From contig CAWDDH010000003.1 of assembly GCA_963801105.1 (NCBI GenBank), forward strand, positions 2,992,235 through 3,056,234: a stretch of DNA of 64,000 bases, in the 5' to 3' direction. Below the pieces are notes generated by a model, which did not search any database, was not told where the DNA came from, and was given only the letters and a program-made list of their open reading frames with translations. The position numbers were made by a program, and so were the translations under genes. This DNA comes from an uncultured Acidimicrobiia bacterium (lineage in GTDB: Bacteria > Actinomycetota > Acidimicrobiia > IMCC26256 > JAENVU01). Positions 1 through 27,450 of this stretch are shown one piece after another (the first letter of the stretch is position 1; the number at the start of each line of letters is the position of its first letter).

Positions 1-356
1 CGATCGCGGTGCTGCTGATCCTCCCCGCGGCGTTCGGCCCGCAGGACCCCGCGTCGAGCCGGATCCGCGCCTTCCTCCAGAGCCGGGTCATGGTGTACCT
101 CGGCAGCATCTCGTACGGCATCTACCTGTGGCACGAGGGGTGGATCGATCGCTACCTCACGTGGACCGGCATTCCCGTGTTCGGCGTCTACACCTCCGAC
201 ACGCCGTTCCGGTGGCACACGAACTCGGTGATCAGCATCCCGTGGCTGGTGTTCCTCCTCGCGGTGCTCGCACTCACGATCGCGTCGGCGTCGCTGTCGT
301 GGTTCCTGCTCGAGCGGCCGCTGCTGCGCCGATTCCACCGCCCCGGGCCGGCCTGA
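1..356 (+). CDS. acyltransferase family 3 (OafA/YrhL-like) membrane protein, C-terminal fragment; 5' end outside window
   Basis: Track ORF 9..356 stays open to the window edge. It has the ISYGIYLWHEGW motif, a terminal TM helix and an LLERPLLRR tail, as in acyltransferase_3 C-termini. Third codon positions are GC-rich. Confidence 0.65.
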   Translation, partial: IAVLLILPAAFGPQDPASSRIRAFLQSRVMVYLGSISYGIYLWHEGWIDRYLTWTGIPVFGVYTSDTPFRWHTNSVISIPWLVFLLAVLALTIASASLSWFLLERPLLRRFHRPGPA

Positions 357-367: not shown

Positions 368-2311
368 TCACGGGGCCTTCGCGTGCACCGGCCCGACGTA
401 GACGCCGATCGTGTTCCGGTCGGACCGCTCCTGAAGTCGGGCGTAGGTCGCGAACCGCTTCGCCCACGGCCGGGGCAGGTCGAGCAGGTCACGGTCCACG
501 GCGAGCGCCAGCTGGCCCGAGCGCAGCGCGTCGGCCCGGGACTCGGGCGTGTCGAACGGGCCCCGCAAGGCCACGAAGAATCCGGACGCGATCGCAGAGG
601 CCAGCTTCGGTGAGTCGGTGAGCGCGCCGGTGCCCAGGTAGTCCCCGATCCGGTGCACGAGCCGGCGCAGCCGGGCCCGCTCGGTCCGGTCGAGCCCGTC
701 GTGGAACGCGACCCGGTGGAACGGCCCGAGCGTGTGGCGCATCGCCACTGCCCCCGACCGGTAGAAGACCTTCGAGCGCGCGTTGTGACCGTCGTAGCGC
801 CGTTCGGGCCCGAGATGGCGGACCTCGTACGGGCTCGCGGTGACGAACGGGATGCCCCGCGACGCCAGCTCCGCCATGATCGCTCCACTGATGGGCTCCT
901 GGAAGCGGATGTCGGACCACTCCACGAGCAGCGGTGCGTCCGGCCGCAGCCGCCCGAGCTGACGGTCCAGGTGGCGCATGACCGGGACCGACCACGATTC
1001 GATCTCGGGTCCGCCGGTCGCCGCGGCCGTTGGCAGGTTGGCGACCGCGACCACGAGCACGAGCACACCGACCACCCGGACGACGAGCCGGCGCCGCGAC
1101 GTGCGCCGGGCGACGAGCTCGAACAGGCCGTCGAGCAACACGAAGGTCGTGAACGCCGCGATCGGCCAGAGGAACCGGAACTGGTGCGGAGCGATGCCGA
1201 CGATCTCCGTGCCGACCCGTGACGTGGTGAAGAGCCCGATCGCCATCGCCACGAGCGCCACGACCACCCCGGTGAGGACCGCGGTCCGGCGGCGGCGCCA
1301 CGCCCAGGCTCCGAGCACGACGAGGGCGAGCAGCAGCACCCCGAGCGCGACCGCCGCCCAGCGGATGCTGGGGACGCCCGTGGTCGCGATCGACAGCGCG
1401 TTCGCGCCGACGGGTTGACCCTTGGGCCGGAACGTGTCGGCGAACGAGTCCCGCAGCCAGAACGGCGGACGGACGAGGACCGCGCTCGTGATGCGCGCCG
1501 CGCCGCGCCACCCCACGATCGCGTCGGGGCCCGCTCGGACCAGGTCGAGGATCCGCCCGAGGTTCCCGCGCCGCGTCGTGAGCTGCTCCACGACCGGCGG
1601 GATCCAGAGCAGGAGCCCGACACCGGTCGCCACCGCCAGTGGCCGCCAGGCCGGCCGAGCGTCGGGCCGGTGCTCGACCCGGCGCCGGAGGAGCCCGAGC
1701 ACCACCGCCCCGATCAGGAGCAGCGGCACGAGGTACCCGTAGCTCAGGTGCGTCTGGAGCAGCAGGCTGCCGACAGCCACCGCGGGTACCGCGAGCACGA
1801 GGTCGCCCTCGGCGAGACCCCACACCAGGAAGAGGAATGCGAGGAACGGCAGGATCAGCACGTGCGGCTGCCACGGGTCGTAGAGCAGGGCGCTCCCCAT
1901 CGACCAGGCGAGCGCGGTGGCGACCAGCGACGCCAGCGCCGACCGGCGGAGGCCCCCCTGGCGCCATCCGACCCACGCGCCGAGCGCGATCGACGCGACG
2001 TTGATCAGCGCGACGCCGACGGCGGTGCCCGCGGCCCGACCGAGCGCAGCGATCGGCACCGCGAGCAGCTGGAAGAGGATCGGACCGGGATGGTTGAGCG
2101 GCCGGGGTGCGCCGACCGACACCGATGCGGCCTGGCCGATGAGTGGCGTCGCCGCGCCGAAGACGTCTTCGGCGCGCACCGCCACGAGGCCGTTGTCGCC
2201 GACCGGGAGCCAGTGGTGCGTGAGCGCCCGCACCGTCGCCACGACCACCGGGATCGCCGCCACCACGAACAGCATCACCGCGACGTTGCGGTCCCGCGCC
2301 CGCACGCTCAC
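368..2311 (-). CDS. polytopic membrane protein, probable GT-C-type glycosyltransferase (tandem paralog A)
   Basis: Derived from track ORF 368..2578. I place the start at GTG 2311 (VSVRARDRNVAVMLFVV...), which makes a GTGA overlap with the upstream stop at 2308; ATG 2275 is an alternative. It has many hydrophobic segments and then a soluble C-terminal domain. It shares the HPGP, LQTHxSY and PPxVxxLT..GNL strings with 2308..4206. Confidence 0.7.
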   Translation of the reverse strand: MSVRARDRNVAVMLFVVAAIPVVVATVRALTHHWLPVGDNGLVAVRAEDVFGAATPLIGQAASVSVGAPRPLNHPGPILFQLLAVPIAALGRAAGTAVGVALINVASIALGAWVGWRQGGLRRSALASLVATALAWSMGSALLYDPWQPHVLILPFLAFLFLVWGLAEGDLVLAVPAVAVGSLLLQTHLSYGYLVPLLLIGAVVLGLLRRRVEHRPDARPAWRPLAVATGVGLLLWIPPVVEQLTTRRGNLGRILDLVRAGPDAIVGWRGAARITSAVLVRPPFWLRDSFADTFRPKGQPVGANALSIATTGVPSIRWAAVALGVLLLALVVLGAWAWRRRRTAVLTGVVVALVAMAIGLFTTSRVGTEIVGIAPHQFRFLWPIAAFTTFVLLDGLFELVARRTSRRRLVVRVVGVLVLVVAVANLPTAAATGGPEIESWSVPVMRHLDRQLGRLRPDAPLLVEWSDIRFQEPISGAIMAELASRGIPFVTASPYEVRHLGPERRYDGHNARSKVFYRSGAVAMRHTLGPFHRVAFHDGLDRTERARLRRLVHRIGDYLGTGALTDSPKLASAIASGFFVALRGPFDTPESRADALRSGQLALAVDRDLLDLPRPWAKRFATYARLQERSDRNTIGVYVGPVHAKAP

Positions 2312-4206
2312 TCCGCGAGGTCGGGCGGCCCGATGAACACCGCGTTCGGGCGCCCGAGGTCGAGGAGGCGCAACAGGTTCCGCTGCAACGGGCGCGGGAG
2401 GCCGGGCGTCAACGACGTGGTGAAGATGTTGGCGTCGAGCTCCGGGATCAGCTCCGCGAGCCCGCCGGCGCGCATCTGCCGGCGCACCACGCGGTTCAGG
2501 CGGGCCGACTCCCGCAGTTGCGCCGCGCTTCTCGGATCCTTGCGGGCGATCAGCGTGACGCCGGGGAGCCGCTGCCACTTCACGATGTCCGCCTCACCGA
2601 CCGCGTAGTGCACGACCGCGGTGGCGTCGCCGCGGGTCACGATCCGTCGGGGCGTCACGATGGCCCGATACGCGACGTTGTCGGGGAACCCCGCGTCGAT
2701 GCCGACGCGCTCGAGCTCGTTGACCATCGTGTACGCGGGTGCGTTGATCGTCACGGTGTCGACGACAGTGACCTGGTATCGGCCGTCGGGCCCGCCCCCG
2801 ACGTACTTCCCGCTGTCGATCGCGCCGATCGTGGCACGCGCGAGGAGCCCGGCGGTCGCCGACACGCGCGGCGTCGGCGGCTCGACGGTCGACGCGTCGA
2901 CCGCGAACCCGGTGAGGTACCCCACCATCACCACCGCGAGCGCGACGGTCCCGAGCCGCGCCGTCCGCGCGCGGTCGGATCGCGCCCGCCACACGAGGAG
3001 GAGGACGGCCCAGGCCGTCGCGAAGAGGAGGAGGGCGTTGAGCTGCCATGCCCAGAGCATCAGGTAGTACCAGACGAAGCCGAAGATGTTCGCGATCGAG
3101 ATCACGCCGAGCACGAGCATCCCGGCCAGCACGACGTCCAGCGCCAGCAGCGCGCGCACGCGCTCCCGCACCGCGACGGCGACGGACGCCACCCACGCGA
3201 TCAGCACCACGACCCCCGGCGCGACCGACCCGGTCGTCGCGTCCTGGCCCGCGACGAGCCGCCACGGGTTCAGGTGCACCAGGAGGATCTCCGCACCCTG
3301 CCGGATCCCGATCGGGTCCTCGGGCGGGTTGGTGAAGTGCCGCCAGATGAGGGTGAGGTTGCCCTCGGAGTTGGTCAGCTCCTGCACGATCGGCGGGACG
3401 GCGGTGAGGAGCACGATCCCGGCCGCGAGCCCGACCCACCACCAGCGCCGGTCGTCGAGCGCGTCCCGTCGTCGCGCCAGGCTCCACGCGGTCCAGACCA
3501 GCGCCACCGCGCCGAGCCCGCCGACGAGCCCCAGGTAGGAGATGTGCGTCTGGAGGCAGAAGCACGCGGCGAAGGCCGCCACCGGGAGCATCGCGAGGTC
3601 GTCGCAGAGGACCGACCAGACTCCGAGCACGAACACGACGAACCAGAGGATCGGCAGGTACGGGTTCCAGGCCTGGGTGAGGATCGACGGGCCGTAGAAG
3701 TAGGTGAGCACCGCGAGCACGGCCCCGATGCCGAAGAACATCGGGGCGCCGCCGCGCCGGCGGCCGACGACGAGGGCCGCGCCGAGCGCGAGCGCGTTCA
3801 GGGTGGCCGTCGCGGCCTGCATCGCCCACGCGGACGCGCCGAAGAGCTCGTAGAACGGGGCGAGTGCCCAGAAGCTGAGCGGACCGGGGTGCGACCCCTG
3901 ATGGCGGAACGACCCGATGCGGCCCGGGAGCCCGATCAGCGGGGGATGCGCGCTGAAGACGTCGCGCAGGCGCATCTCGGTCTGGGCGAGGTCGAGGATC
4001 GGGAACCACCGCGGCCGGGCCAGCGCGACGAGCGCCACCACGAAGCCCACCGCGAATGCGAGCCAGGCGACGACGAGCCAGGCCGCGGGCACTCGACGCC
4101 GAGCGGAGACGGCCGCCTCGGGCTCGGCCACGGCGCCCGGACCGTCCACCACCGCCGTCGCCATCGGGGCCGATTCTACGGCCGTACCCGCTCCGAAGCG
4201 CTGCAC
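2308..4206 (-). CDS. polytopic membrane protein, probable GT-C-type glycosyltransferase (tandem paralog B)
   Basis: Track ORF 2308..4206, with the start at GTG 4206 or ATG 4164. It has the same architecture and conserved strings as 368..2311 (WFPILD..RDVFSAHPPLIG..HPGPLSF, LQTHISY, PPIVQELTNSEGNL). Confidence 0.7.
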   Translation of the reverse strand: MQRFGAGTAVESAPMATAVVDGPGAVAEPEAAVSARRRVPAAWLVVAWLAFAVGFVVALVALARPRWFPILDLAQTEMRLRDVFSAHPPLIGLPGRIGSFRHQGSHPGPLSFWALAPFYELFGASAWAMQAATATLNALALGAALVVGRRRGGAPMFFGIGAVLAVLTYFYGPSILTQAWNPYLPILWFVVFVLGVWSVLCDDLAMLPVAAFAACFCLQTHISYLGLVGGLGAVALVWTAWSLARRRDALDDRRWWWVGLAAGIVLLTAVPPIVQELTNSEGNLTLIWRHFTNPPEDPIGIRQGAEILLVHLNPWRLVAGQDATTGSVAPGVVVLIAWVASVAVAVRERVRALLALDVVLAGMLVLGVISIANIFGFVWYYLMLWAWQLNALLLFATAWAVLLLVWRARSDRARTARLGTVALAVVMVGYLTGFAVDASTVEPPTPRVSATAGLLARATIGAIDSGKYVGGGPDGRYQVTVVDTVTINAPAYTMVNELERVGIDAGFPDNVAYRAIVTPRRIVTRGDATAVVHYAVGEADIVKWQRLPGVTLIARKDPRSAAQLRESARLNRVVRRQMRAGGLAELIPELDANIFTTSLTPGLPRPLQRNLLRLLDLGRPNAVFIGPPDLAE

Positions 4207-4250: not shown

Positions 4251-6062
4251 ATGCCCGGCACCGCTGAGCACGTGTCGCCGCGTGCGCGGACCCGCTCCGT
4301 CCCCGGCGTGCGGGCGTTCACCACACTCTCCGGGCGCGTCGCCGCGTGGTCGCCCCGCACCAAGCGGATCGTCGTCATCGCGGTGATCGCGGCGGCGTTC
4401 GCCCTCCCGCTCCGCGGGCTGCTGCGGAACCAGGGGCCACCCATGGAAGAGGGCTTCATGCTCGTCTTCCCCGAGCGGGTCCTCCACGGCGACCTGCCCA
4501 ACCGGGACTTCCTGCACCTGTACGGTCCCGGCAGCCTCTGGCTGCTCGCGGGATGGATGAAGGTCCTGGGTGTCACGCTGACGTCCGAGCGGCTCTTCGC
4601 CCTGCTCCAGGAGATCGGCGTCGTGGGCGGCATCTACTGGCTCGCCCGACCCTGGGGCCGCCGCCTCGCCCTCGCGTGCGCTCTCCTCTCGCTCGTCTTC
4701 ATCCTCCCACCGCTCGGGCTCACCGCCCTGGCCTGGGTCGGCGGTGTGGCGCTCGGGCTGCTCGGCCTGGGCCTCACGCTCGCCGGACGCCACCGGCTCG
4801 CACCCGACGGAACCGCACCCGCTCCGCCCGCAGCGCTGCGTTTCGCCTTCTGGGGTGGGGTCGTCAGCGCCGCCGCACTCCTGTTCCGGCTCGACCTGAT
4901 CGTGGCGGTCGGCCTCGGAGCGCTCGCGGCGACGGCGGGCACCGGCCGGCGCCTGCGCGTGCGCTATCTCACCGGGCTCGGCATCGGGTCGTCGCTCTAC
5001 CTGATCCAGATCCTCACCGCCGGCGCGTACAACACGTTCAAGGGCATGGTGCTCGACCCGGTCGTCTACCTGCGCGGTGGGCGGCGACTGCCGATTCCCC
5101 CGCCCTGGGACCACCTCGATGGCTTCCTCCAGCGGTCCGGGGCGATCCAGCCGCCGAAGTGGCCGCTCCCGCACCTCTCGACCTCCCAGCAGCTGTTCCT
5201 CTGGTTCTTCTTCATGATCGCGACCGTGCTCTTCGTCCCGGTCGTGGGATGGCTCGCCTCCCGGCAGCGACCCGACGGCTTCCGTCCGCGCGTGCTCCTC
5301 GCGGCGGGGCTGTTCGGCCTCGGCATCATCTCCCAGGGCATCCAGCGGGTGGACTCCGCGCACTTCGCCTGGGTCAGCTGCGTGTCGGTCGCGCTGCTCC
5401 CGGTGGCCGTGTTCGAGCTCGTCGCCTGGCGCCGAGGTCGGCGCGGCAACCGCACGACGCGGCCCGTGCCACGCGTCGGCGCCTCCCGCGTGATCTGCGC
5501 GGTCGGCATCCCGGTGGCAGTGGTCCTGCTGATCCCGCACTTCACCGGCTGGTCCTACGTGGACTTCAGCGCCCAGACGTTCGGTCGCCACCGGCTCGCG
5601 TTCCCGATCACGCGCAACGGCCGCACCTTCTACTACGGGCGCGAGGACGTCGCGAACGCCGCGCGGGAACTGCTCGCGGAGGTTCCCAAGGTCGCGCAAC
5701 CGGGCGACAGGCTCTTCGTCGGGCCGACCGATCTCCGCAAGACGCCGTACTCGGACGCGTACCTCTACTACCTGCTCCCCGAGTACCCGCCCGGCACCTA
5801 CTTCATCGAGATGGACCCCGGCGTCGCGAACGAGAAGGGCTCGCGCATGCCCTCGGACCTCGCGCACTCCCAGATCGCGATCCTGTCCGGAGTCTGGAAC
5901 GACTGGTCCGAACCGAACGACTCACGCAAGTTCGGGAGCGACGCGTCGACGAAGGTCCTCCATCGCGACTTCTGCCGGGTGCGCACCTTCGGTGAGCGTG
6001 CCGACGACGGCAAGCCGCTCTACGAGCTCTGGGTCAAGCGGTCGAATCCCGCCTGCGCCTGA
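4251..6062 (+). CDS. polytopic membrane protein with soluble C-terminal domain, possible GT-C-like glycosyltransferase
   Basis: This is the in-frame ATG at 4251 (MPGTAEH...) inside track ORF 4056..6062; the arginine-rich N-terminal extension before it looks non-coding. It has an acidic EEGF motif before the first TM cluster, about 10 hydrophobic segments, and a conserved-looking tail (FVGPTDLRKTPYSDAYLYYLLPEYPPGTYFIEMDPG). It is divergent from 2308..4206. Confidence 0.65.
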   Translation: MPGTAEHVSPRARTRSVPGVRAFTTLSGRVAAWSPRTKRIVVIAVIAAAFALPLRGLLRNQGPPMEEGFMLVFPERVLHGDLPNRDFLHLYGPGSLWLLAGWMKVLGVTLTSERLFALLQEIGVVGGIYWLARPWGRRLALACALLSLVFILPPLGLTALAWVGGVALGLLGLGLTLAGRHRLAPDGTAPAPPAALRFAFWGGVVSAAALLFRLDLIVAVGLGALAATAGTGRRLRVRYLTGLGIGSSLYLIQILTAGAYNTFKGMVLDPVVYLRGGRRLPIPPPWDHLDGFLQRSGAIQPPKWPLPHLSTSQQLFLWFFFMIATVLFVPVVGWLASRQRPDGFRPRVLLAAGLFGLGIISQGIQRVDSAHFAWVSCVSVALLPVAVFELVAWRRGRRGNRTTRPVPRVGASRVICAVGIPVAVVLLIPHFTGWSYVDFSAQTFGRHRLAFPITRNGRTFYYGREDVANAARELLAEVPKVAQPGDRLFVGPTDLRKTPYSDAYLYYLLPEYPPGTYFIEMDPGVANEKGSRMPSDLAHSQIAILSGVWNDWSEPNDSRKFGSDASTKVLHRDFCRVRTFGERADDGKPLYELWVKRSNPACA

Positions 6063-6768
6063 AGCGGTCGCGGATCCCCCACCAGCTCACGAGGGCCATC
6101 TCCTCGGCCATCACCGCCATCGACATCTTGGAGTGCCCCCGCACGCGATCGGTGAAGGTGATCGGCACCTCGACGATCGTCCCACCGGCCTGGGCCACCC
6201 GGTAGGCCAACTCGATCTGGAACCCGTACCCCTTGGCCCGGGTCGCCGCGTAGTCGATCTTCTCCAGGATCTCGACGCGGAACGCGCGGTAGCCGGCCGT
6301 CGCGTCCTTCACGCCGGTGCGCAGCATGAAACCGGTGTAGAGGTTCCCGTACTTCGACATCGCCCGGCGCCGGGCCGGCCAGTGGGGGATCGCACCCCCG
6401 GGGACGTACCGCGACCCGATGACGAGGTCGGCACCCGCCTCGACCGCCGCGAGGAGATCGGGGAGCACCTCCGGGTCGTGCGAGAGGTCGGCGTCGATCT
6501 GGCACACGACGTCGTAGCCGCGAGCGATACCGATCGCGAACCCGGCGCGGTAGGCGTTGCCCAACCCGCGCTTCTCCGGTCGGCGCAGCACCTCGATGTG
6601 CCCGAGCTCGGCGGCGACCCGCTCGGCGATGTCCGCGGTGCCGTCGGGGCTGTTGTCGTCGAGCACGAGGATGTCGACCTCGGGCACTGCCGCGCGTGCC
6701 CGCCGGAGGAACTCCTCGATGTTCTCGGCCTCGAGGTAGGTGGGCGTGCAGACCTGGACCCGCATCAA
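6034..6768 (-). CDS. ppm1: polyprenol-monophosphate glycosyl (mannose) synthase, GT2 family (Ppm1/DPM1-like)
   Basis: The full-length pattern of polyprenol monophosphomannose synthases is present: TPTYLEAENI, LVLDDNSPDGT, RPEKRGLGNAY, QIDADLSHDP, VIGSRYVPGG, KDATAGYRAF, GYGFQIE, VPITFTDRVRGHSKMS. Its start makes an ATGA overlap with the upstream stop. Sugar specificity cannot be read from the sequence. Confidence 0.85.
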   Translation of the reverse strand: MMRVQVCTPTYLEAENIEEFLRRARAAVPEVDILVLDDNSPDGTADIAERVAAELGHIEVLRRPEKRGLGNAYRAGFAIGIARGYDVVCQIDADLSHDPEVLPDLLAAVEAGADLVIGSRYVPGGAIPHWPARRRAMSKYGNLYTGFMLRTGVKDATAGYRAFRVEILEKIDYAATRAKGYGFQIELAYRVAQAGGTIVEVPITFTDRVRGHSKMSMAVMAEEMALVSWWGIRDRFRRRRDSTA

Positions 6769-8321
6769 CCCTGCCCGGAGCTGCGCCGGGCGGCCGCAGC
6801 GTCGATCGCGGACCGGGGCAGCACCGGGGCGTCCCGGCCGGTTCCACCCTCACCGCCGGCCTCCGCGTCGTCGCGGACCTCGTGGTAGCGGTCCTCGACG
6901 TTCACCGACCAGACGTCGTTGTGCGCACCGAAGAGGTTGTCGACCGAGAGGATGGCCGTCATCATCGAATGGTCCTGGTTGTTGTACTTGTGCATGCCGT
7001 TGCGGCCCGTCGGCATGATGTTGGGAGCATTGGCCGCGATCCAGTCCCGCAGGACCGCCACGTTGTCCTTGTAGAACTCGTCATAGACCGGGTACGCCTT
7101 GGGCATCCGCACCACGTAGCCGGCCTCCACCTTGCTGGAGTCGGCGAGGCCGAGCGCCTCGAGCTCGCGCTTGCCCTGCTCGACGAGCGCCTCGTCGGAC
7201 TTGGTCCACATGTCGTCGCCCTCGTTCACGAAGAACTCGAGTCCGAGACAGGTCCGTCCCTCCTTGACGAGATACGGCGACCACGACCCGAAGTTCTGGA
7301 TCCGACCCACCTTCACCGCGGGGTCGTGGATGTAGATCCAGTTGTCGGGGAACGAGTACTCGACCGGCACCACCAGCGCCACCGTCATGAAATCCCGGTA
7401 GGTGAGTCCCTCGGCCGCGGCCCGCACGTGCTCCGGCGCCGGCGGGTCGAGCGCTCGGATCAGCGACCGGAACGGCATCGACGAGATCACGTGCGTGCAC
7501 GGGTAGGTCCGCGCCTCGCCGTCGATGTCCGCGACCACCTCGTACGCGGCGCCGTCACGGTGACGGATGGTCACGACCTCGGCGCCGAACACGAGGTTCG
7601 TTCCCGCCGCAGTCACGATCTCCGCGCACTTCTCCCACATCTGGCCCGGGCCGTACTTGGGGTAGTTGAACGACTCGATGAGCGAGGTGACCTGGTCGCC
7701 CTTGCCCCGGCGGGCCTTGATCGCCTTCGGCGTCAGCGCGTCGGCGATCGCGGTCATGAGCGACATGCCCTTCGACCGCTGGGCGCCGAAGTCGGCGGAC
7801 ATCTCCTTGGTGGGGACGCCCCAGACCTTCTCGTTGTAGCGGCGGAAGAAGTGCTCGTAGAGCCGCCAACCGAACTGGCTCACGTAGAAGCCCTCGAGGT
7901 TGCTCGTGTCCTCGGGCGGACGGACCTTCACCCAGGCGTAGGAGCCCACGCAGCGCACCGCCTCCACCGGGCCGAGGTTGCGCAGGGCGTTGATCGGCTT
8001 GAGCGGGTAGTCGTAGAGCTTGCCCCGGTAGAGGATCCGCGACATCCGGGGCCGCTGGAGGAACTCCTCCGCACCCAGGATCTCGAACCAGAGCTCGTCG
8101 ACCTCGCGGACCTTGGTGAAGAACCGGTGGCCACCGATGTCGAAGCGCCAGCCGTCGCGCTCGACGGTCCGGCTGATCCCGCCGACCGTGTGGTCGGCCT
8201 CCAGGATCGTCGCCGTCACGCCCCGCTGGGCCAGCTTGTACGCCGCCGTCAGTCCCGCCGGTCCCGCGCCGATGATCACCACGTTCGGTGCAGTCGATTC
8301 GGGCGCGTCGGGTTGCGACAT
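6765..8321 (-). CDS. FAD-dependent oxidoreductase, UDP-galactopyranose-mutase-like
   Basis: The start is at MSQPDAPE (ATG 8321) inside track ORF 6765..8393. It has a Rossmann FAD motif (VVIIGAGPAGLTAAYKLAQRG..ILEADHTVGG) and a Glf-family-like string (FGWRLYEHFFRRYNEKVWG). A TGATG overlap joins it to the upstream stop. Confidence 0.75.
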   Translation of the reverse strand: MSQPDAPESTAPNVVIIGAGPAGLTAAYKLAQRGVTATILEADHTVGGISRTVERDGWRFDIGGHRFFTKVREVDELWFEILGAEEFLQRPRMSRILYRGKLYDYPLKPINALRNLGPVEAVRCVGSYAWVKVRPPEDTSNLEGFYVSQFGWRLYEHFFRRYNEKVWGVPTKEMSADFGAQRSKGMSLMTAIADALTPKAIKARRGKGDQVTSLIESFNYPKYGPGQMWEKCAEIVTAAGTNLVFGAEVVTIRHRDGAAYEVVADIDGEARTYPCTHVISSMPFRSLIRALDPPAPEHVRAAAEGLTYRDFMTVALVVPVEYSFPDNWIYIHDPAVKVGRIQNFGSWSPYLVKEGRTCLGLEFFVNEGDDMWTKSDEALVEQGKRELEALGLADSSKVEAGYVVRMPKAYPVYDEFYKDNVAVLRDWIAANAPNIMPTGRNGMHKYNNQDHSMMTAILSVDNLFGAHNDVWSVNVEDRYHEVRDDAEAGGEGGTGRDAPVLPRSAIDAAAARRSSGQG

Positions 8322-10291
8322 CAGGTCCTCGGGGGGTGTACGTCGGTCGTGAGGGAGACCGGCGATGCTACTCCGGGCCCGAGCGGCGCCCACCGCCGCG
8401 TGTCGCCCCAGACCACCCGGTGGAACTCCTCGTACGGGGTCATCACCGCCACGGTGCCGTCCTGCACCCGGTAGTGGAGGTCCTGGCGGTAGAGAGGATG
8501 CGCCGCGGCGTCGGCCGCGGTGGTCCCCCGCCCGATCCCCAGCGTGATCGTGCCCACACCGTCGAGGCCGTACTCGTGGATGACACCGTCGGGACCGACC
8601 GGAGCCGCACCGGCGCGGACTCGCAGCTCCGCGGATGCGCCCCCCACCGCCGGCCAGCTGTTCACGACCTCGCCGAACATGCGCGCGTACAACCGTGCCC
8701 CCGCCGGCAGCCGGCCGCCACGAACACTCGTACGCAACACGACCGAACCCCCCTGCACCACGCGTATCGGGGTGAGCGTCACTTCCGGCGTCTCCGGATG
8801 GTCGTTCGGCACCTGACCGTCCGGCGGGATGGACGTGCGCTGGAGAAACGGCCGGCGATCCGGGTACGCGTCCATGAGCGCGAAGTCACGCGCCCCGTGG
8901 TCCACCGCCCAGAGCACCGGCCCGTCGAGGTTCGGTCGGTTCGCCGAGAACGGGTTCAGGAACAGCAGGTAATCGCCCGCGCGCCACACGAAGACCAGCG
9001 AGTGCGCGGGCGCGGCCGCCGAACTGCGCTCCCACGGCAGCTGCGAACGGCTGATCCGCCGGTTGACGTCGATGCGGTCGATCGCGACCGGCACGGTCAC
9101 CACCACCATCGCCGCGACGATGCCGAGCGCGAACGAGCGCCGGGTGTCCCACCACCGCACGAGCTCGGACGCGCCGGCGATGGCCAGCACCGCGATGCAG
9201 GGGATGTAGTAGATCGGCCCGCTCAAGGGCATGGTCGCGGACGACACGAAGATGCCCCAGAAGAAGAAGTACCCGACGGGGAACGCGAGCCCGAGCGCGA
9301 TGAGGATCCGCGTCCCGAAGTCGGCCCGCTCCCGCCAGAGTCGCCACGCGGCGAGCCCGGCCAGGACGTAACCGCCCCCCAGGAACAGCGGCAGCAGCGC
9401 GACCTGCTTGATCGAGCTGCGGAGACCCTGGAGCACGCCGTAGTCCGCGGCGCGGAAGGTCGGCATGATGCGCCGCTTCCCGAATCCGAACGTGTCGAGC
9501 GCGTCGGCCGCGGTGATCGGGAACTGCGTGAAGGCACCGGTGACGTGCCGGTTGTACAGCAGGGTCGCGACCACGAGCGGGGCGAAACCGAGCGCGAGCA
9601 TCAGCCCCGGCCGGATCAGGCCACGCACGTTCCGTCGCTGCTCCCACACGATGAGGAGCACGACCGCGGCGCCCCACAGCACGGCGTCGAACGGTCGGGT
9701 CATGAAGATCCATCCGAGGAGCAGCCCGCCGACGACGAGGCGCACCCAGCCGCTCCTGCGGACGCCCGAAATCGTGGCCGTCGCGAAGAGCAGCCCGAGA
9801 CCGAGGGTGAAGAGGTATCCGAGGTAGACGCCGCCCTGGATCGGCAGGATGGGCGACAGCAGCATCACGACCGCCGCGACCCTGGCCACGCGCTCCTCGC
9901 CGGTGAGGACGCGCGTCAGGAGGAAGGTGCCGAGCACGGTGAGGGCCGCGCCGAGCGCAATCGCCGCGTCGGGCGAGCCGAACACCACATCGCCCGCGAG
10001 GAGCACGAGGGGCCAGCCGAGGGTGTACTGGGAGAAGAAGGAGTGATCTCGGAGCCCGGCCAGCCAGGGGTGGAAGAACTGTGGGAAGCCGCCGGTCGGT
10101 GACGTGATCTGGCCCGCCCGGAGGCCCGCGACCTGCCAGAGGTAGACCGGCTCGTCGCGATTCCAGCTGTACGCCGGGAACACGAGGTGGCGTGAGAGCA
10201 GCGCGACGGCGACACCCGCGAGCGGCAGGCCGACGAGCCACCAGGAGAACCCCGGCCCGCGTGACGATGTCGACGCGCGCGAATCCCCCAC
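8321..10291 (-). CDS. GT-C-type (ArnT/PMT-like) membrane glycosyltransferase with C-terminal extracytoplasmic domain
   Basis: Derived from track ORF 8321..10423. The start is tentatively GTG 10291, because the next gene on the + strand starts at 10384. It has a first-loop acidic motif (SWNRDEPVYLW), more than 10 TM segments, and a soluble tail of about 230 aa. Confidence 0.65.
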   Translation of the reverse strand: MGDSRASTSSRGPGFSWWLVGLPLAGVAVALLSRHLVFPAYSWNRDEPVYLWQVAGLRAGQITSPTGGFPQFFHPWLAGLRDHSFFSQYTLGWPLVLLAGDVVFGSPDAAIALGAALTVLGTFLLTRVLTGEERVARVAAVVMLLSPILPIQGGVYLGYLFTLGLGLLFATATISGVRRSGWVRLVVGGLLLGWIFMTRPFDAVLWGAAVVLLIVWEQRRNVRGLIRPGLMLALGFAPLVVATLLYNRHVTGAFTQFPITAADALDTFGFGKRRIMPTFRAADYGVLQGLRSSIKQVALLPLFLGGGYVLAGLAAWRLWRERADFGTRILIALGLAFPVGYFFFWGIFVSSATMPLSGPIYYIPCIAVLAIAGASELVRWWDTRRSFALGIVAAMVVVTVPVAIDRIDVNRRISRSQLPWERSSAAAPAHSLVFVWRAGDYLLFLNPFSANRPNLDGPVLWAVDHGARDFALMDAYPDRRPFLQRTSIPPDGQVPNDHPETPEVTLTPIRVVQGGSVVLRTSVRGGRLPAGARLYARMFGEVVNSWPAVGGASAELRVRAGAAPVGPDGVIHEYGLDGVGTITLGIGRGTTAADAAAHPLYRQDLHYRVQDGTVAVMTPYEEFHRVVWGDTRRWAPLGPGVASPVSLTTDVHPPRT

Positions 10292-10383
10292 CGCGGCCAA
10301 TCTATCGGTGGACCGGGGGAAACCTGCGGAGCCGGGAGGGCGCGAAGGCCCGCGAACCGCGCCCGAGTACGATCCCTCCCTGC

Positions 10384-13300
10384 ATGGCGCAGATCGCAGC
10401 CGGGAAGCCCCTCGGCAGGTCACGCCTCCCGGCTGCGGACGTCGTGGTGCTGACGCTCCTGGCCTACGTGCCGTTCCTCTTCTCCTCCCCCGGGAAGCTG
10501 AGCAGCGACACCAAGCAGTACCTCTACCTCGACCCCGGACGGTTCCTGACCCGGGTGCCCTGGCTGTGGGACCCGCACGTGGCCGCGGGCACGGTCCCGC
10601 ACCAGCAGATCGGCTACCTGTTCCCGATGGGTCCGTACTACTGGGTCCTCGATCGCGTCGGCGTGCCGGACTGGATCGCGCAGCGCATCTGGCTGGGCAC
10701 CATCTCCGTCGTGGCCGCTCTGGGCGCGCGCTGGCTCTTCCGCGAGTTGGGGATCCGGCGGGTCGGGGCGATGGCCGGGGCGATCGTGTACGTGCTCACG
10801 CCCTACCAGCTGGCGTTCACCGCCCGCATGTCGGTCCTCCTGCTCCCGTGGGCGGCGCTCCCCTGGATCGTCGGGCTCGCGATGCGCGCCACGCGCCGCG
10901 GCGGGTGGCGCGACCCGGCGGCGATCGCGCTGATCCTGCTCGTGATCGGCGGGGTGAACGCGTCCGCGCTGCTCCTGATGGGGATCGCGCCGGCGCTGTG
11001 GATGGTCATGGAGTGCTGCGCGGGGCGCGAGCGCGCCCGGGCCGCGCTCGGGGCGTCGGCGCGGATCGCGGTCCTCGGGCTCGGCGTCTCGCTCTGGTGG
11101 GTCGCCGGGCTCTGGCTCCAGGGCTCGCAGGGGCTGCCGGTCCTGGCGCTCACCGAGAACGTGCAGACCGTGTCCACCGCCTCGTCGCCGGCTGACGTCC
11201 TGCGCGGGCTCGGGAACTGGTTCTTCTACGGGCGCGACGCCTCGGGCTACTCACTGGTCCAGACCCAGGCGTACCTCTCGAGCCGGGTCGTCGTGACGGC
11301 CAGCTTCCTCGTACCCGCGCTCGGACTCCTCGCGGGAGTGCTCGTGCGCTGGCGCCACCGCGCCTACTTCGCCGCGTGCGTGATCGTCGGCACGATCATC
11401 GGCGTGGGGGCCTGGCCCTACGAGGACTCCACGCCGTACGGCCACCTCTGGCGCTCCTTCACCAGCGCCACTGCGATCGGGCTGGCGCTCAGGAACAGCC
11501 CGCGGGTGGTCCCGATGGTCGTCCTCGGGATCGCCGGGCTCCTGGCCGCCGGCGTCGCGGCCCTGCCGCCGGTGCGGGTCCGGGTCCTCGGCGCGGCCGG
11601 GATCGTCGGCCTCGCGATCCTCGCCCTGCTCCCCGTGTGGCAGCACGGGTTCCTGAGCCCCGGTGTCGAGCGACCCGAGCACGTGCCGGCCTACTGGACC
11701 GACGCGGTCCGGGCGATGGACCGGGGGAGCCACACGACCCGCATCCTGGAGATCCCCGGCTCGAGCTTCGCCACCTACCGCTGGGGCAACACCGTCGAGC
11801 CGATCACGCCCGGGCTCACCAGCCGTCCGTATCTCGCCCGAGAGGTCCTCCCCTACGGATCACTGGCCTCGGTGAACCTCCTCGACGCGTTCGACCGGCG
11901 CCTGCAGAACGGCAGCTTCGAGCCGGCGACCGTCGCGCCGCTCTCCCGGCTGTTCGGCGTCGGCACGGTCGCCCTGCGCAGTGACCTCGCGTACGAGCGC
12001 TCCGGGTCACCGCACCCCCGCGTCGTCTGGGCGGCGCTCACCGATCCGCTCGCGCCGGGGATCACCGGGCCACGCGCGTTCGGGCCACCGTCACCGGACC
12101 TCGCGCCCAACCCGGACGGCATCGACCTGCGCCTCGGCGCCGACACGACCGATCCTCCGCCCGTCGCGCTCTTCGGCGTGCGGGATCCGTTGCCGATCGT
12201 GCGCACGGCACCGGACCGGGACCCCGTCCTCCTGAGCGGCGACGGCGACGGGATCGTCGACCTCGCGGCCGCCGGTCTGATCGACGGACGCGAGCGGCTG
12301 CTCGAGCTCGCCTCGCTCGACCGGACCGCGGTGGGCCACGCGCTCGACACCGGCGCCGCGCTCGTGCTCACCGACTCCAACCGGCGCCGGATCACCTCCT
12401 ACTTCTCGTCGATCCGCGACACGAAGGGCGCGACCGAACGCGCCGGGCACACCACGCACGACGTCAACGGCTACGGCACGGCCGTCGACCCGTTCCCGGG
12501 CTCCGGCGACGGGAGCCGTACGGTCGTCGAGCAGCGCGGCGCGACCGTGTCGGCGACCGCCGACGGCGGACCGGCGCGCCCCGAGGACCGCGCCGCGGCG
12601 GCGTTCGACGGCGAGCTCCGCACGTCCTGGCGCGTCGGCGGACCCGACCCCACCGGCGAGGCGATCACCGTCCACCCCGACCGACCGGTGCGAACCGGCC
12701 ACGTGGACCTCGTCCAGCCGCTCGACCTCCCGCGCGACCGCTGGATCACCCAGGTGCGGATCACGGTCAATCACGGGACGCCCTTCCTCGCCGACCTCGG
12801 CGATGCCTCCTTCACCACTGCCGGCCAGCGCGTGCAGTTTCCCCGGACCACCGTGCGCTCGCTCCGGATCGAGATCGCCGCGACGCACGACCCCCCGTTC
12901 GACCCACAGTTCGCGAACGCGGTGGGCTTCGCCGAGATCCGGCTCGGACACGTCCGCGTGCACGAGACCGTCCGCCTGCCCGTGGATCTCGTTCGCCGGA
13001 TCGGGACGGACGCCGGTGGTCACTCGCTCGCCGTCGTGATGACCCGTCTGCGCCAGGAGACCGCGACCGGTGGCCGCCACGACGAGGAGCTCGCCCTCGA
13101 CCGGCGGTTCGTCCTCCCCGATGCCCGCACCTTCACCCTCGGGGGGACGGCACGCATCGACCCGGACGCGCCCGGACCGACGATCGACCAGGTGCTCGGC
13201 ACCGCGGTCCCGGGCGTCGAGTTCAGCGCCTCGAGCCATCTCACCGGCGACCTGGACGCCCGTGCGTCGCGTGCGTTCACCGGTGATCCGTCCACGGCCT

Positions 13301-14616: not shown

Positions 14617-14625
14617 GCCGGCTCA
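14614..14625. repeat. perfect 12-bp palindrome TGAGCCGGCTCA containing both stop codons of the convergent AftD paralogs
   Basis: Read directly: TGA at 14614-14616 (+ gene), TCA at 14623-14625 (stop of the - gene), with GCCGGC between them. Confidence 0.9.
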
Positions 14626-26482: not shown

Positions 26483-27061
26483 CTACTCGGAGAAGGGGTT
26501 GCGTCCCGTCCACGCGAGGAAGCGATCCGATTCCGTCGCGTCGCCAGGCGCAGTCACGGCACTTCCGAACACACGGGCACTCCGCAGCTGTTCGGTCGGC
26601 ACCGGGTCCAGCACACCATGTGCGAACTCGATCGCGGTGTCCGGAATCTCGATCGCGATCCCCAGCGGAGCCGCGATGTCCCATGCGTGGACGAAGAGGT
26701 CGACGGCCGGGAAGCTCAGACCCTCGCCGATCGACCGTTGGCCGATCGGCGAATCGACGATCCGGGAGAGGTCCACACCCGACACGGCGGCGCGCGCCGG
26801 ATCGACGAGCGATTCCCACCAGCGTTGCGGATCCCCGTCGACGGCCGCGCCCGGCGGTTCGACGGGGTCCCAGGTCGGAGCTTCCTGTCGCAGCAGCGCG
26901 GTCCCGAACCGGGTCGCGGCTCCGACGTGGCCGAGCACATCCAGCTCGCGCCAGCCGTCGCACGCCGAGGGGCGTCGCCAATCCGGCGGCTCCAACTGTC
27001 CGACGACATCGCCGAAGAACGTGAGTCCGACGAGAAACGCTTCATCCGATTGCCACGCCAT
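26483..27061 (-). CDS. DinB-superfamily / mycothiol-dependent maleylpyruvate-isomerase-like metal-binding protein (TIGR03086-like)
   Basis: The start is MAWQSDEAFL (ATG 27061). The CDGWRELDVLGHV and DLFVHAWDIA strings are as in DinB/MDMPI_N proteins, and the size is about 190 aa. Confidence 0.6.
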   Translation of the reverse strand: MAWQSDEAFLVGLTFFGDVVGQLEPPDWRRPSACDGWRELDVLGHVGAATRFGTALLRQEAPTWDPVEPPGAAVDGDPQRWWESLVDPARAAVSGVDLSRIVDSPIGQRSIGEGLSFPAVDLFVHAWDIAAPLGIAIEIPDTAIEFAHGVLDPVPTEQLRSARVFGSAVTAPGDATESDRFLAWTGRNPFSE

Positions 27062-27146
27062 GCGGCGGATGGTAACTGGGCCCTGAGCGCCCACGGTGCG
27101 GCCCGACCCGGCGCGCCGACGGGCCGCTCCCCGGCGCCGGAAGCGA

Positions 27147-27383
27147 TCAGTCCTCGGGAAGCTCGGCGAAGTCGCTCTTGACCTGCTTGTACCAGCCCAT
27201 GCCCTTGATCGGACGCTTCCACCGGCCCTTCATCGCCTTCAGGGCGGGTTCATGGGCGGTGTCGCCCTGCGCGACGACTTCCTCGAGATGCCGATCCTGC
27301 GCCTTGATCACGTCGTCGGCGGTTGCGGCATGGTGCGCCAGCGCGCACGGGCCCCCCAACTGCTGACACGTCATGGTCTTCAT
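27147..27383 (-). CDS. DUF1059 domain-containing small protein
   Basis: MKTMTCQQLGGPCALAHHAATADDVIKAQDRHLEEVV...MKGRWKRPIKGMGWYKQVKSDFAELPED matches my memory of DUF1059 proteins. A GGAG-type Shine-Dalgarno (SD) sequence precedes ATG 27383. Confidence 0.75.
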   Translation of the reverse strand: MKTMTCQQLGGPCALAHHAATADDVIKAQDRHLEEVVAQGDTAHEPALKAMKGRWKRPIKGMGWYKQVKSDFAELPED

Positions 27384-27450
27384 GGTCCTCACTCCCCGTT
27401 CTGCGCGCGACGTATCGGACGACGCGCCGCGGTCGACGGCTGTCCACATC

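What the first reader, a model, noticed from the sequence alone, without database searches (positions are those of the whole stretch)
6034..10291. Translationally coupled GT-C, UDP-galactopyranose-mutase-like flavoenzyme and polyprenyl-phosphate GT2: possible route to a lipid-linked furanose donor
Three minus-strand genes are chained by overlapping stop/start codons: TGATG at 8319-8323 and ATGA at 6765-6768.
- The first is a polytopic ArnT/PMT-like GT-C.
- The second has an FAD Rossmann motif plus FGWRLYEHFFRRYNEKVWG. This resembles the signature stretch of UDP-galactopyranose mutase (Glf) family enzymes, which interconvert pyranose and furanose nucleotide sugars.
- The third is a Ppm1/DPM1/GtrB-type synthase that loads a sugar onto polyprenyl phosphate.

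The GtrB-plus-GT-C logic is established, for example in O-antigen glucosylation and mycobacterial PpgS/Rv3779. Inserting a mutase-like enzyme between the two suggests the lipid-linked sugar could be a furanose (Galf or Araf). The module sits directly next to two AftD-like enzymes, which use lipid-linked furanose donors. No DprE1/DprE2-type genes are visible in this window. The mutase-like assignment and the furanose idea are my inference.
Basis: partly seen in the sequence, partly recalled or inferred. Interest (0 to 1): 0.62.

Follow-up and report, generated by a model that had tools for sequence, protein, structure and literature searches.

The report
Furanose mutase within GT-C glycan cluster
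Three overlapping genes in an Acidimicrobiia-like genome encode a membrane glycosyltransferase, a true relative of the sugar-ring-contracting enzyme UDP-galactopyranose mutase, and a standard-looking lipid-mannose synthase; the gene calls hold, but the proposed lipid-linked furanose route through this synthase does not fit its active site.

Summary
Three minus-strand genes (10291-8321, 8321-6765, 6765-6034) are chained by stop/start overlaps.

- **Gene 1:** a GT-C-fold enzyme.
- **Gene 2:** a full-length homologue of eukaryotic-type UDP-galactopyranose mutases (UGMs). The histidine loop, the uridine motif and the pyrophosphate-binding Arg/Tyr residues are all conserved. It belongs to a large uncharacterised bacterial family (NCBIfam PRK07208), commonly annotated 'protoporphyrinogen oxidase'.
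- **Gene 3:** a soluble DPM1/Ppm1-type polyprenyl-phosphate glycosyltransferase.

The 'mutase-like' call is therefore well supported. The lipid-linked furanose idea is not.

- The GT2's signature at the 19 positions matching P. furiosus DPMS functional residues is the same, bar occasional conservative changes, in 76 relatives down to 41% identity. Most of these have no mutase nearby.
- The GT2's conserved partner is the convergent GT-C-like gene at 4251-6062, not the upstream GT-C.
- The three-gene unit is kept only in the closest relatives.

Across 77 loci the mutase gene is nevertheless strongly tied to GT-C genes: 39% of immediate neighbours against 4% five or more genes away. A furanose donor for extracytoplasmic glycosylation therefore remains an open and interesting possibility for the family.

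The parts
8321..10291 (-). GT-C-fold glycosyltransferase, 656 aa. It has about 10 TM segments plus a C-terminal beta-rich domain (Pfam DUF7846). W43-N44-R45-D46-E47 are invariant in the first loop.
   Evidence: (P0271 identical).
6765..8321 (-). UGM-type flavoenzyme of family PRK07208/NF005548, 518 aa, soluble. Predicted NDP-sugar pyranose/furanose mutase.
6034..6765 (-). DPM1/Ppm1-type polyprenyl-phosphate glycosyltransferase (GT2), 243 aa, no TM segment, DADLSH motif.
8319..8323 (-). TGATG stop/start overlap between the GT-C and the flavoenzyme, with GAGGA 4 nt upstream of the ATG.
6763..6767 (-). TGATG stop/start overlap between the flavoenzyme and the GT2. An in-frame TTG at 6768 would instead give a TTGA overlap.
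4251..6062 (+). 603-aa polytopic protein with no Pfam hit, distantly GT-C-like. It is convergent with the GT2, with 3' ends overlapping by 29 nt. It is the conserved partner of this GT2 type.
   Evidence: (P0391).
2308..4206 (-). 632-aa polytopic GT-C-like protein. Its profile matches the PMT_2-type GT-C family at 97.7% probability.
368..2578 (-). Paralogue of the previous gene, also polytopic and GT-C-like. The true start is probably near 2311, where it would overlap the upstream stop.
6..356 (+). 3' end (last ~113 codons) of an Acyl_transf_3 acyltransferase gene cut by the window edge.
   Evidence: 69% identity to the L001 AT3; synteny.
10192..14616 (+). AftD-like GT-C with an F5/8 type C domain, divergent from the 656-aa GT-C. 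The real start may lie downstream of 10192.
   Evidence: GT-C_AftD, 1e-90.
14625..18974 (-). Second AftD-like gene, split over three reading frames with two frameshifts. It is either a pseudogene or carries assembly indels.
19022..20623 (-). PMT_2-type GT-C, 533 aa. Its family is the commonest neighbour of the flavoenzyme gene in other genomes (37 of 77 loci).

Best explanation
The three genes are one transcription unit inside a cell-envelope glycan cluster of at least 20 kb in an Acidimicrobiia-like actinobacterium. The cluster (window ~1-20623, continuing past the left edge) is built almost entirely of extracytoplasmic GT-C-type or GT-C-like glycosyltransferases.

**Shown by sequence and structure comparison:**
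- Gene 2 belongs to the flavin-dependent NDP-sugar pyranose/furanose mutase superfamily.
- Gene 3 is a DPM1/Ppm1-type polyprenyl-phosphate glycosyltransferase.
- Gene 1 is a GT-C.

**Inferred mechanism: two separate supply lines sit side by side.**
1. The GT2 makes polyprenyl-phosphate mannose from GDP-mannose at the cytoplasmic face, as its homologues do. After flipping, this lipid donor is used by the convergent GT-C-like protein (4251-6062) and probably by other GT-C-like enzymes of the cluster.
2. The flavoenzyme, with reduced FAD, contracts the ring of a nucleotide sugar, most likely UDP-Galp to UDP-Galf. That donor enters the same glycan through a transferase not encoded in this window.

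The layout resembles mycobacterial arabinogalactan synthesis, where glf lies among GT-C genes but UDP-Galf is consumed in the cytoplasm (from established knowledge). The identity of the sugar and the route of the furanose to the outside are not established.
For: **Mutase identity**
- phmmer against PDB sequences: the best hit is T. cruzi UGM 4dsg (E 6.2e-25, query residues 8-473). A. fumigatus UGMs score about 1e-19. Protoporphyrinogen oxidase scores only 4e-9, and only over the Rossmann part.
- Foldseek: ranks 1-21 are UGMs (TM 0.72/0.78).
- The equivalents of the UGM GGH loop, FFxxY(T/N)xKxW, R182, R327, Y419, R447, Y453 and N457 are kept in at least 94 of 108 aligned sequences (the query plus 107 representatives).
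- Fusion partners of family members are NDP-sugar epimerase/dehydratase, Gfo/Idh/MocA, GT4, GT2 and GT2+PMT_2.

**GT2 as a Ppm1-type enzyme**
- Best PDB hit is P. furiosus DPMS (E 1e-35), against ArnC at 4e-11.
- 17 of 19 PfDPMS functional positions are identical (positions from PMC5526996; mapping).
- The signature at those positions recurs, bar occasional conservative changes, in 76 metagenomic relatives down to 41% identity.
- GT2 relatives at 65-67% identity keep the 603-aa partner but have no mutase within 3-6 kb. Relatives below 55% identity have neither.

**Module not a unit**

**GT-C nature of the neighbours**
Against: - No furanosyl-transferring Leloir GT is visible in the 64-kb window. 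The DPM1-like GT2 is the only cytoplasmic GT in the cluster, and it is translationally coupled to the mutase.
- All nine GT2 relatives at 69% identity or more that have enough flank carry the mutase gene adjacent.
- Across 77 loci the recurrent Leloir-type neighbours of the mutase are polyprenyl-phosphate-GT-like GT2s of several subtypes (25 loci), more often than GT4 (11 loci).
- GT-C genes are ten-fold enriched next to the mutase gene.
- One family member fuses mutase, GT2 and GT-C in a single chain.
- None of the enzyme specificities has been measured.
Confidence: 0.45

Rival explanations
1. The mutase makes an NDP-furanose (Galf or Araf). The translationally coupled DPM1-like GT2 loads it onto polyprenyl phosphate. 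GT-C enzymes of the cluster then transfer the furanose outside the membrane.
For: - The TGATG coupling of mutase and GT2 is conserved in the closest relatives.
- The GT2 is the only Leloir-type GT in the cluster.
- The mutase is adjacent to every GT2 relative at 69% identity or more that has flank.
- The cluster is dominated by GT-C or GT-C-like genes, which need lipid-linked donors.
Against: - The GT2's signature at the DPMS functional positions matches, bar occasional conservative changes, that of relatives down to 41% identity that have no mutase nearby. D89 and H94, which contact mannose O2/O3, and R117 are kept. A change of both nucleotide and ring form with no change at these positions is unlikely.
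- In several loci the GT2 is convergent to the mutase and co-oriented with the 603-aa partner instead.
- Two thirds of mutase loci have no such GT2 within 10 kb.
- No report of a polyprenyl-phosphate galactofuranose was found.
Confidence: 0.15
2. A lipid-linked furanose donor does exist in this system but is made by a different polyprenyl-phosphate GT encoded elsewhere in the genome. The mutase family as a whole would then feed GT-C enzymes: a hexofuranose counterpart of the three-component pentofuranose systems.
For: - GT-C-like genes are 39% of immediate neighbours of the mutase gene against 4% at five or more genes away.
- Several distinct polyprenyl-phosphate-GT-like GT2 subtypes sit downstream of the mutase in other loci. 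One is a PpgS-like subtype with changed sugar-pocket positions: F177 to D/E, K178 to S/T and S135 to M.
- There are mutase+GT2+PMT_2 fusions and mutase+polytopic-domain fusions.
- Classical Leloir GTs are rare among 104 other neighbours.
Against: - The evidence is purely contextual.
- The PpgS-like subtype often comes with a polysaccharide deacetylase, which points to an amino-sugar line rather than a furanose.
- No such GT2 is in this window.
- All known UGM-type products are used directly by Leloir GTs (established knowledge).
Confidence: 0.2
3. The flavoprotein is not a mutase. It would be a redox enzyme of the amine-oxidase / protoporphyrinogen-oxidase / phytoene-desaturase type, acting on a lipid carrier or a sugar.
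For: - Pfam assigns only Amino_oxidase (1.9e-19), with no hit to GLF.
- Public annotations say 'protoporphyrinogen oxidase'.
- Protoporphyrinogen oxidase 2ivd follows closely in the fold search (E 2.7e-24, TM 0.66/0.75).
Against: - Sequence matches to oxidases cover only the Rossmann part, whereas UGM matches are full length.
- The residues specific to UGM catalysis and UDP binding are conserved family-wide.
- Fusion partners are nucleotide-sugar enzymes and glycosyltransferases.
Confidence: 0.1
4. The mutase acts on the lipid-linked sugar made by the GT2, converting polyprenyl-phosphate pyranose to furanose, rather than on a nucleotide sugar.
For: - Gene order and coupling.
- The strong GT-C association without a nearby Leloir furanosyltransferase.
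Against: - The uridine-binding motif and the pyrophosphate-binding Arg/Tyr set of UGMs are conserved.
- The protein has no predicted membrane segment.
- Fusions to NDP-sugar epimerase/dehydratase point to nucleotide-sugar substrates.
Confidence: 0.05

Closest known systems
Eukaryotic-type UDP-galactopyranose mutases (T. cruzi 4DSG, A. fumigatus 3UTE/3UKH)
   Same: - Full-length homology (E 6e-25) and about the same length.
- Same fold (TM 0.72/0.78).
- GGH histidine loop.
- FFRRYNEKVW against FMRPYNFKVW.
- Equivalents of R182, W315, Y317, R327, Y419, R447, Y453 and N457 are present.
   Different: - Only 20-23% identity.
- The uracil-contacting Gln (AfUGM Q107, residue identity from memory) aligns with a variable position (K108 here).
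- Y334 aligns with Trp.
- The protein is bacterial and sits among GT-C genes.
- Substrate untested.
Prokaryotic Glf / UGM and its NDP-sugar mutase relatives (E. coli 1I8T, K. pneumoniae 3GF4; C. jejuni UDP-L-Arap and CDP-fucose mutases, PMC10615251, PMC12369002)
   Same: - FADH2-dependent ring-contraction chemistry is expected.
- The N-terminal ~165 residues, including the uridine motif, align at E 1e-6 to 1e-4.
- Most family members carry Thr at the YT position, as bacterial Glf does.
   Different: - No hit to Pfam GLF (PF03275).
- About 130 residues longer.
- The C-terminal half aligns only with eukaryotic UGMs.
Dolichyl/polyprenyl-phosphate mannose synthases (P. furiosus DPMS 5MLZ; eukaryotic DPM1; mycobacterial Ppm1)
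   Same: - GT2 GT-A domain.
- DAD metal motif within DADLSH.
- 17 of 19 PfDPMS functional positions (donor, metal, acceptor, loop) are identical.
- Soluble catalytic domain without TM helices, as in DPM1 of higher eukaryotes and Ppm1 of M. smegmatis (from memory).
   Different: - Q93 is Ser and K178 is Gln.
- No NCBIfam equivalog model reaches its cut-off.
- Donor not assayed.
- Translationally coupled to a mutase gene.
GtrA/GtrB/GtrC-type three-component glycosylation; PpgS/Rv3779
   Same: A polyprenyl-phosphate sugar synthase next to GT-C enzymes. The GT2 plus the 603-aa partner form a conserved pair.
   Different: - No GtrA-like or MATE flippase was found in the window.
- The GT2 is DPM1-like rather than GtrB/PpgS-like (44 bits to the ArnC and PpgS models, against 127 bits to DPMS).
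Lipid-linked pentofuranose donors: decaprenyl-phosphate arabinose (UbiA, DprE1/E2) and the PRPP-based three-component systems (Kelly et al. 2024, PMC11127046)
   Same: AftD-like and other GT-C enzymes that, in the known systems, use lipid-linked furanose donors.
   Different: - Those donors derive from PRPP via a UbiA-like synthase and epimerases, and no mutase is involved.
- No UbiA, DprE1 or DprE2 genes are in the window.
Mycobacterial arabinogalactan locus (glf-glfT2 among aftA/emb/aftB; from established knowledge)
   Same: A pyranose/furanose mutase gene embedded among GT-C genes of a cell-wall glycan cluster.
   Different: There the Galf transferase GlfT2 is encoded next to glf. No GlfT-like GT is present in this window.

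Membership tests
Flavin-dependent NDP-sugar pyranose/furanose mutases (UGM superfamily) | N-terminal FAD-binding Rossmann fold with GxGxxG | tested here: met
   GAGPAG at residues 18-23. NAD_binding_8 scores 8.4e-15.
Flavin-dependent NDP-sugar pyranose/furanose mutases (UGM superfamily) | Full-length sequence homology to experimentally solved UGMs, better than to other flavoenzyme families | tested here: met
   4dsg scores E 6.2e-25 over residues 8-473. The best non-UGM (PPO 1sez) scores 4e-9 over residues 7-114 only.
Flavin-dependent NDP-sugar pyranose/furanose mutases (UGM superfamily) | UGM three-domain fold | tested here: met
   The AlphaFold model has pLDDT 76.7. Foldseek ranks 1-21 are UGMs, with PPO close behind, so the fold alone does not discriminate.
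Flavin-dependent NDP-sugar pyranose/furanose mutases (UGM superfamily) | Catalytic and substrate-binding residues: histidine loop GGH; uridine motif FFxxY(T/N)xKxW; Arg/Tyr residues that hold the pyrophosphate; Asn of NQDHS | tested here: met
   By the HMMER alignment to 4dsg/3ute the equivalents are G63 G64 H65, F158 F159 Y162 N163 W167, R182, R340, Y410, R440, Y446 and N448. Apart from G64 (81 of 108) and position 163 (T/S/N), each is conserved in at least 94 of 108 aligned sequences. The residue roles are from established knowledge of A. fumigatus UGM.
Flavin-dependent NDP-sugar pyranose/furanose mutases (UGM superfamily) | Match to Pfam GLF (PF03275) | tested here: not met
   No GLF hit at E<=0.01. 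As far as I know that model is built on the shorter prokaryotic Glf clade. Whether eukaryotic UGMs match it was not tested here.
Flavin-dependent NDP-sugar pyranose/furanose mutases (UGM superfamily) | Ring contraction of an NDP-pyranose by reduced FAD without net redox change | not testable with these tools
   Needs an enzyme assay.
DPM1/Ppm1-type polyprenyl-phosphate mannose synthase (GT2) | GT2 GT-A catalytic domain with the DAD metal motif | tested here: met
   PF00535 scores 6.5e-32. The motif is QIDADLSHDP.
DPM1/Ppm1-type polyprenyl-phosphate mannose synthase (GT2) | Conservation of the GDP-mannose and polyprenyl-phosphate contact residues defined in P. furiosus DPMS | tested here: met
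   Y10, E12, D38, D39, G68, L69, D89, D91, H94, R117, R131, S135, F177, R202 and K208 are identical. Q93 is Ser and K178 is Gln. The same signature, bar occasional conservative changes, is found in 76 relatives.
DPM1/Ppm1-type polyprenyl-phosphate mannose synthase (GT2) | GDP-mannose donor specificity | not testable with these tools
   Needs an assay. No NCBIfam equivalog reaches its cut-off.
GT-C glycosyltransferases | Polytopic N-terminal membrane domain with GT-C fold plus an extracytoplasmic C-terminal domain | tested here: met
   About 10 hydrophobic segments. The model has pLDDT 85. All of the top 38 Foldseek matches are GT-C enzymes.
GT-C glycosyltransferases | Conserved acidic residues in the first extracytoplasmic loop | tested here: met
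   W43 N44 R45 D46 E47 are invariant in 20 homologues, directly after the first helix at residues 17-36.
ArnT / PMT (GT83 / GT39) families specifically | Significant match to the family models | tested here: inconclusive
   Pfam finds only DUF7846. The NCBIfam ArnT model scores E 0.0028 (16 bits against a cut-off of 567). A PDB profile search found nothing. hhalign against PMT_2-type neighbours gives 92-96% probability.
Three-component (GtrA/B/C-like) extracytoplasmic glycosylation system | Polyprenyl-phosphate sugar synthase, flippase and GT-C encoded together | tested here: inconclusive
   The synthase and several GT-Cs are present. No GtrA_DPMS_TM or MATE hit was found among the window ORFs scanned.
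Decaprenyl-phosphate arabinose pathway | UbiA-type phosphoribosyltransferase and the DprE1/DprE2 epimerase pair | tested here: not met
   No such Pfam hits in the window. The rest of the 3.8-Mb contig could not be examined.

The most novel reading that the evidence does not exclude
The large, uncharacterised PRK07208 family of UGM-type flavoenzymes supplies furanose sugars to extracytoplasmic GT-C glycosyltransferases through a polyprenyl-phosphate hexofuranose donor. The donor would be made either by this GT2 or by another DPM1/GtrB/PpgS-like synthase. This would be a mutase-based counterpart of the PRPP-based lipid-linked pentofuranose systems, and would explain what AftD-like enzymes use in actinobacteria that lack a visible DPA pathway.
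Probability: 0.3. Interest if true: 0.8.

Novelty: new member of a known kind. Interest (0 to 1): 0.45.

Why it matters
The flavoprotein belongs to a family with about 2,000 clusters (at 50% identity) scoring E<=1e-30. Databases label it 'protoporphyrinogen oxidase' or a generic oxidoreductase. The evidence here says it is a sugar-ring mutase, so many genomes probably make furanose sugars that go unrecognised.

The family's tight linkage to GT-C genes raises a testable question: can hexofuranoses be delivered outside the membrane on a lipid carrier? That has no precedent.

For this particular locus the sober reading is a routine envelope-glycan cluster. It contains a Ppm1-like lipid-mannose synthase, its GT-C partners, and a mutase that feeds a furanose into the same polymer.

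Tried and rejected
**Literature**
- A search for 'PRK07208' found nothing.
- Searches for polyprenyl/undecaprenyl-phosphate galactofuranose terms found nothing.
- The lactococcal cell-wall polysaccharide paper uses UDP-Galf cytoplasmically and is not relevant.

**Database look-ups**
- Exact look-up of the window's flavoprotein and GT-C on public contigs returned 'not on record'.
- A profile search of the GT-C against PDB sequences gave no meaningful hit. Structure prediction was needed instead.
- Source names for the GT2 clusters are absent or generic.

**Neighbouring genes in relatives**
- I tried to name the two extended-SDR genes that follow the cluster in relatives, as a clue to the sugar. 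All NCBIfam hits were far below cut-off (OleD, HpnA, GalE-like), so the result is inconclusive.

**Fusion proteins**
- The GT2 in the mutase fusions P0133/P0136 is EpsD/MftF-like with C-terminal TM helices, not DPM1-like. These fusions therefore cannot be read as a single-chain copy of this module.

**RNA**
- Rfam and tRNA scans of the window found nothing.

**Rejected idea**
Its family co-occurs with AftD, not with the GT2.

Full report
**Setting.** The window is 72% G+C. The closest homologues of its genes come from Acidimicrobiia metagenome-assembled genomes. Because long spurious ORFs abound at this G+C, genes were chosen by third-position G+C and checked against gene products on record.

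**Observation.**
- On the minus strand, a 656-aa gene runs from GTG 10291 to TGA 8323-8321.
- A 518-aa gene runs from ATG 8321 to TGA 6767-6765.
- A 243-aa gene runs from ATG 6765 to TGA 6036-6034.
- The 656-aa and 243-aa products are present with exactly these ends in the protein collection (P0271; P0539).
- The second junction reads TTGATG at 6768-6763, again a TGATG overlap.
- The overlaps recur in the nearest relatives. Overlaps of this kind are ordinary in high-GC operons.

**Gene 1.**
- Pfam finds only DUF7846 in the C-terminal part. An ArnT model matches at noise level, and a profile search of PDB sequences finds nothing.
- A confident model (pLDDT 85) matches only GT-C enzymes in its top 38 Foldseek hits, including AglB, ArnT, ALG9, STT3, AftA and PglB.
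- Twenty homologues share an invariant W-N-R-D-E directly after the first helix. The GT-C call stands.

**Gene 2.**
- Pfam gives Amino_oxidase and no GLF hit. NCBIfam places it firmly in NF005548/PRK07208, named 'hypothetical protein' (E 6e-220).
- Against solved structures the best sequence matches are full-length eukaryotic-type UDP-galactopyranose mutases: T. cruzi 4dsg at E 6.2e-25 over residues 8-473, and A. fumigatus at about 1e-19. Bacterial UGMs match the first ~165 residues. Protoporphyrinogen, amino-acid and amine oxidases match only the Rossmann part.
- The predicted structure (pLDDT 76.7) retrieves UGMs at ranks 1-21. Protoporphyrinogen oxidase is close behind, so fold alone does not decide.
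- What decides is the active site. The GGH histidine loop, the uridine motif (FFRRYNEKVW against FMRPYNFKVW), and the equivalents of A. fumigatus R182, W315, Y317, R327, Y419, R447, Y453 and N457 are all present. Most are conserved in at least 94 of 108 aligned sequences, the query plus 107 diverse family representatives.
- The family is large: 1,982 cluster representatives at E<=1e-30.
- Family members occur fused to an NDP-sugar epimerase/dehydratase, a Gfo/Idh/MocA oxidoreductase, a GT4, a GT2, a GT2 plus PMT_2 GT-C, a methyltransferase, or a large polytopic domain. This is the company a nucleotide-sugar enzyme keeps.
- The sugar and nucleotide cannot be read from sequence. Characterised FADH2-dependent mutases act on UDP- and CDP-sugars of several configurations (PMC12369002; PMC10615251).

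**Gene 3.**
- It is a soluble GT2 with no hydrophobic segment. Its best solved relative is P. furiosus dolichyl-phosphate mannose synthase (E 1e-35), far ahead of ArnC (4e-11).
- I took the donor, metal and acceptor contacts described for that enzyme (PMC5526996) and mapped them on the alignment.
- Seventeen of 19 positions are identical, including D89 and H94 (mannose O2/O3), R117, R131 and S135. Q93 is Ser and K178 is Gln.

**Is the module a unit?**
- I fetched 80 genome loci through the flavoprotein and clustered all neighbouring ORFs.
- The three-gene order with overlaps is kept only where the flavoprotein is at least about 82% identical. At 86% identity (L001) the upstream GT-C is already replaced by a PMT_2-type one.
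Outside the window it sits beside AftD, with AftD between it and the flavoprotein.
- The commonest neighbours of the flavoprotein gene, out of 77 loci:

| Neighbour | Loci |
|---|---|
| PMT_2-type GT-C, homologous to window 19022-20623 | 37 |
| DPM1/GtrB-like GT2s | 25 |
| 412-aa polytopic family without Pfam, profile-related to PMT_2 | 22 |
| Second PMT_2 family | 19 |
| AT3 acyltransferase | 15 |
| AftD | 13 |
| GT4 | 11 |

- GT-C-like genes make up 39% of immediate neighbours and 4% at five or more genes away. A census of 104 further neighbours found no other recurrent Leloir GT family.

**The GT2's own partner.**
- Close homologues of the GT2 (at least 55% identity) nearly always lie next to a homologue of the convergent 603-aa polytopic gene at 4251-6062. 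That gene is distantly GT-C-like by profile comparison.
- I sampled independently through the GT2 in metagenomes:

| GT2 identity to the window's | Neighbourhood |
|---|---|
| 69% or more (nine loci with enough flank) | All nine carry the flavoprotein gene adjacent, often convergent rather than co-transcribed |
| 65-67% | The 603-aa partner is kept, but no flavoprotein within 3-6 kb |
| Below 55% | Neither |

- The 19-position signature YEDDGLDADLSHRRSFQRK recurs, bar occasional conservative changes, in all 76 of these proteins down to 41% identity.
- The enzyme coupled to the mutase therefore shows no specialisation relative to a broad DPM1/Ppm1-like family. I read this as the main argument against a furanose donor passing through this GT2.

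**Other GT2 subtypes.**
- Other loci carry different polyprenyl-phosphate-GT-like enzymes downstream of the flavoprotein. One is a PpgS-like subtype with altered sugar-pocket positions. Others are fused to a GtrA-type membrane domain or to a methyltransferase. Two loci carry two subtypes side by side. None of these is in the window.

**The wider cluster.**
- From the left edge to 20.6 kb the window holds, in order:
  1. the tail of an AT3 acyltransferase;
  2. two paralogous GT-C-like genes;
  3. the 603-aa partner;
  4. the GT2;
  5. the mutase;
  6. the 656-aa GT-C;
  7. an intact AftD;
  8. a second AftD broken by two frameshifts;
  9. a PMT_2 GT-C.
- In relatives the cluster continues beyond the AT3 gene with two extended-SDR genes and a GMC oxidoreductase. 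Their specificity could not be assigned.
- No DprE1, DprE2, UbiA, Glf or GlfT-like gene was detected among about 50 ORFs scanned.

**Interpretation.**
- The most economical reading is two supply lines in one envelope-glycan cluster. One is a Ppm1-type lipid-mannose line: the GT2 with its GT-C partner, and probably further GT-C-like enzymes. The other is a nucleotide-furanose line: the mutase, whose consuming transferase is not in view. I give this 0.45.
- A lipid-linked furanose made by another synthase gets 0.2. The striking GT-C linkage of the whole family keeps that idea alive.
- A non-mutase redox role gets 0.1.
- A mutase acting on the lipid-linked sugar gets 0.05.
- Known lipid-linked furanose donors are pentofuranoses derived from PRPP, without any mutase (PMC11127046). 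I found no report of a polyprenyl-phosphate hexofuranose.

**Verdict.** The parts are new members of known kinds. The uncharacterised mutase family and its GT-C linkage are the elements worth following up.

Noticed in passing
window 14625-18974 (minus strand): The second AftD-like gene is split over three reading frames. AftD1 residues 87-457 map to 18959-17844, residues 484-1031 to 17743-16070, and residues 1026-1431 to 16077-14827. The two frameshifts mean either a pseudogene or indel errors in a long-read assembly (the contig is 3.83 Mb).
   Followed up: partly
window 6-356 (+), and loci L001 18099-21542 and L084 12248-15637: The glycan cluster is cut by the left edge of the window. The first ORF is the tail of an AT3 acyltransferase. 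In relatives two tandem extended-SDR 'epimerase/dehydratase' genes and a GMC oxidoreductase follow. Their substrates could not be assigned, but they could bear on which sugar is made.
   Followed up: partly
proteins P0124, P0132, P0133, P0134, P0136, P0188, P0189, P0216 (family representatives): Members of the flavoprotein family occur as fusions with several partners: an NDP-sugar epimerase/dehydratase, Gfo/Idh/MocA, GT4, a membrane-anchored GT2, GT2 plus a PMT_2 GT-C (1409 aa), or a ~500-residue polytopic domain with no Pfam match.
   Followed up: partly
loci L006, L009, L010, L012, L025, L044, L059, L075, L083: A PpgS-like polyprenyl-phosphate GT subtype (DADGQH motif, altered sugar-pocket positions) lies downstream of the flavoprotein gene on the same strand. 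It often comes with an AT3 acyltransferase and a polysaccharide deacetylase, which may indicate a lipid-linked amino-sugar line.
   Followed up: partly
for example L074 8644-9891, L010, L011, L013 (22 loci): A ~412-aa polytopic protein family with no Pfam hit (motif WDxGWY...GY) sits immediately upstream of the flavoprotein gene in 17 loci. It is profile-related to PMT_2 GT-Cs at 95-96% probability. It is absent from this window.
   Followed up: partly
public annotations of the flavoprotein family: JGI names most close homologues 'protoporphyrinogen oxidase', and NCBI names them 'NAD(P)/FAD-dependent oxidoreductase'. On the evidence here the first name is probably a misannotation.
   Followed up: yes
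window 26500-31600 and 51941-53170: A stretch of lower G+C (0.68) has few confident ORFs. It holds an ECF-type sigma-factor-like ORF with a SnoaL-like C-terminus (27454-28728, minus strand), and an HNH-endonuclease gene follows (30248-31594). A second DUF222+HNH gene lies at 51941-53170.
   Followed up: no
window 40066-41406 (minus strand): A further PMT_2-type GT-C lies 20 kb from the cluster among fatty-acid-metabolism genes. Its family is the immediate downstream neighbour of the flavoprotein gene in 10 other loci.
   Followed up: no
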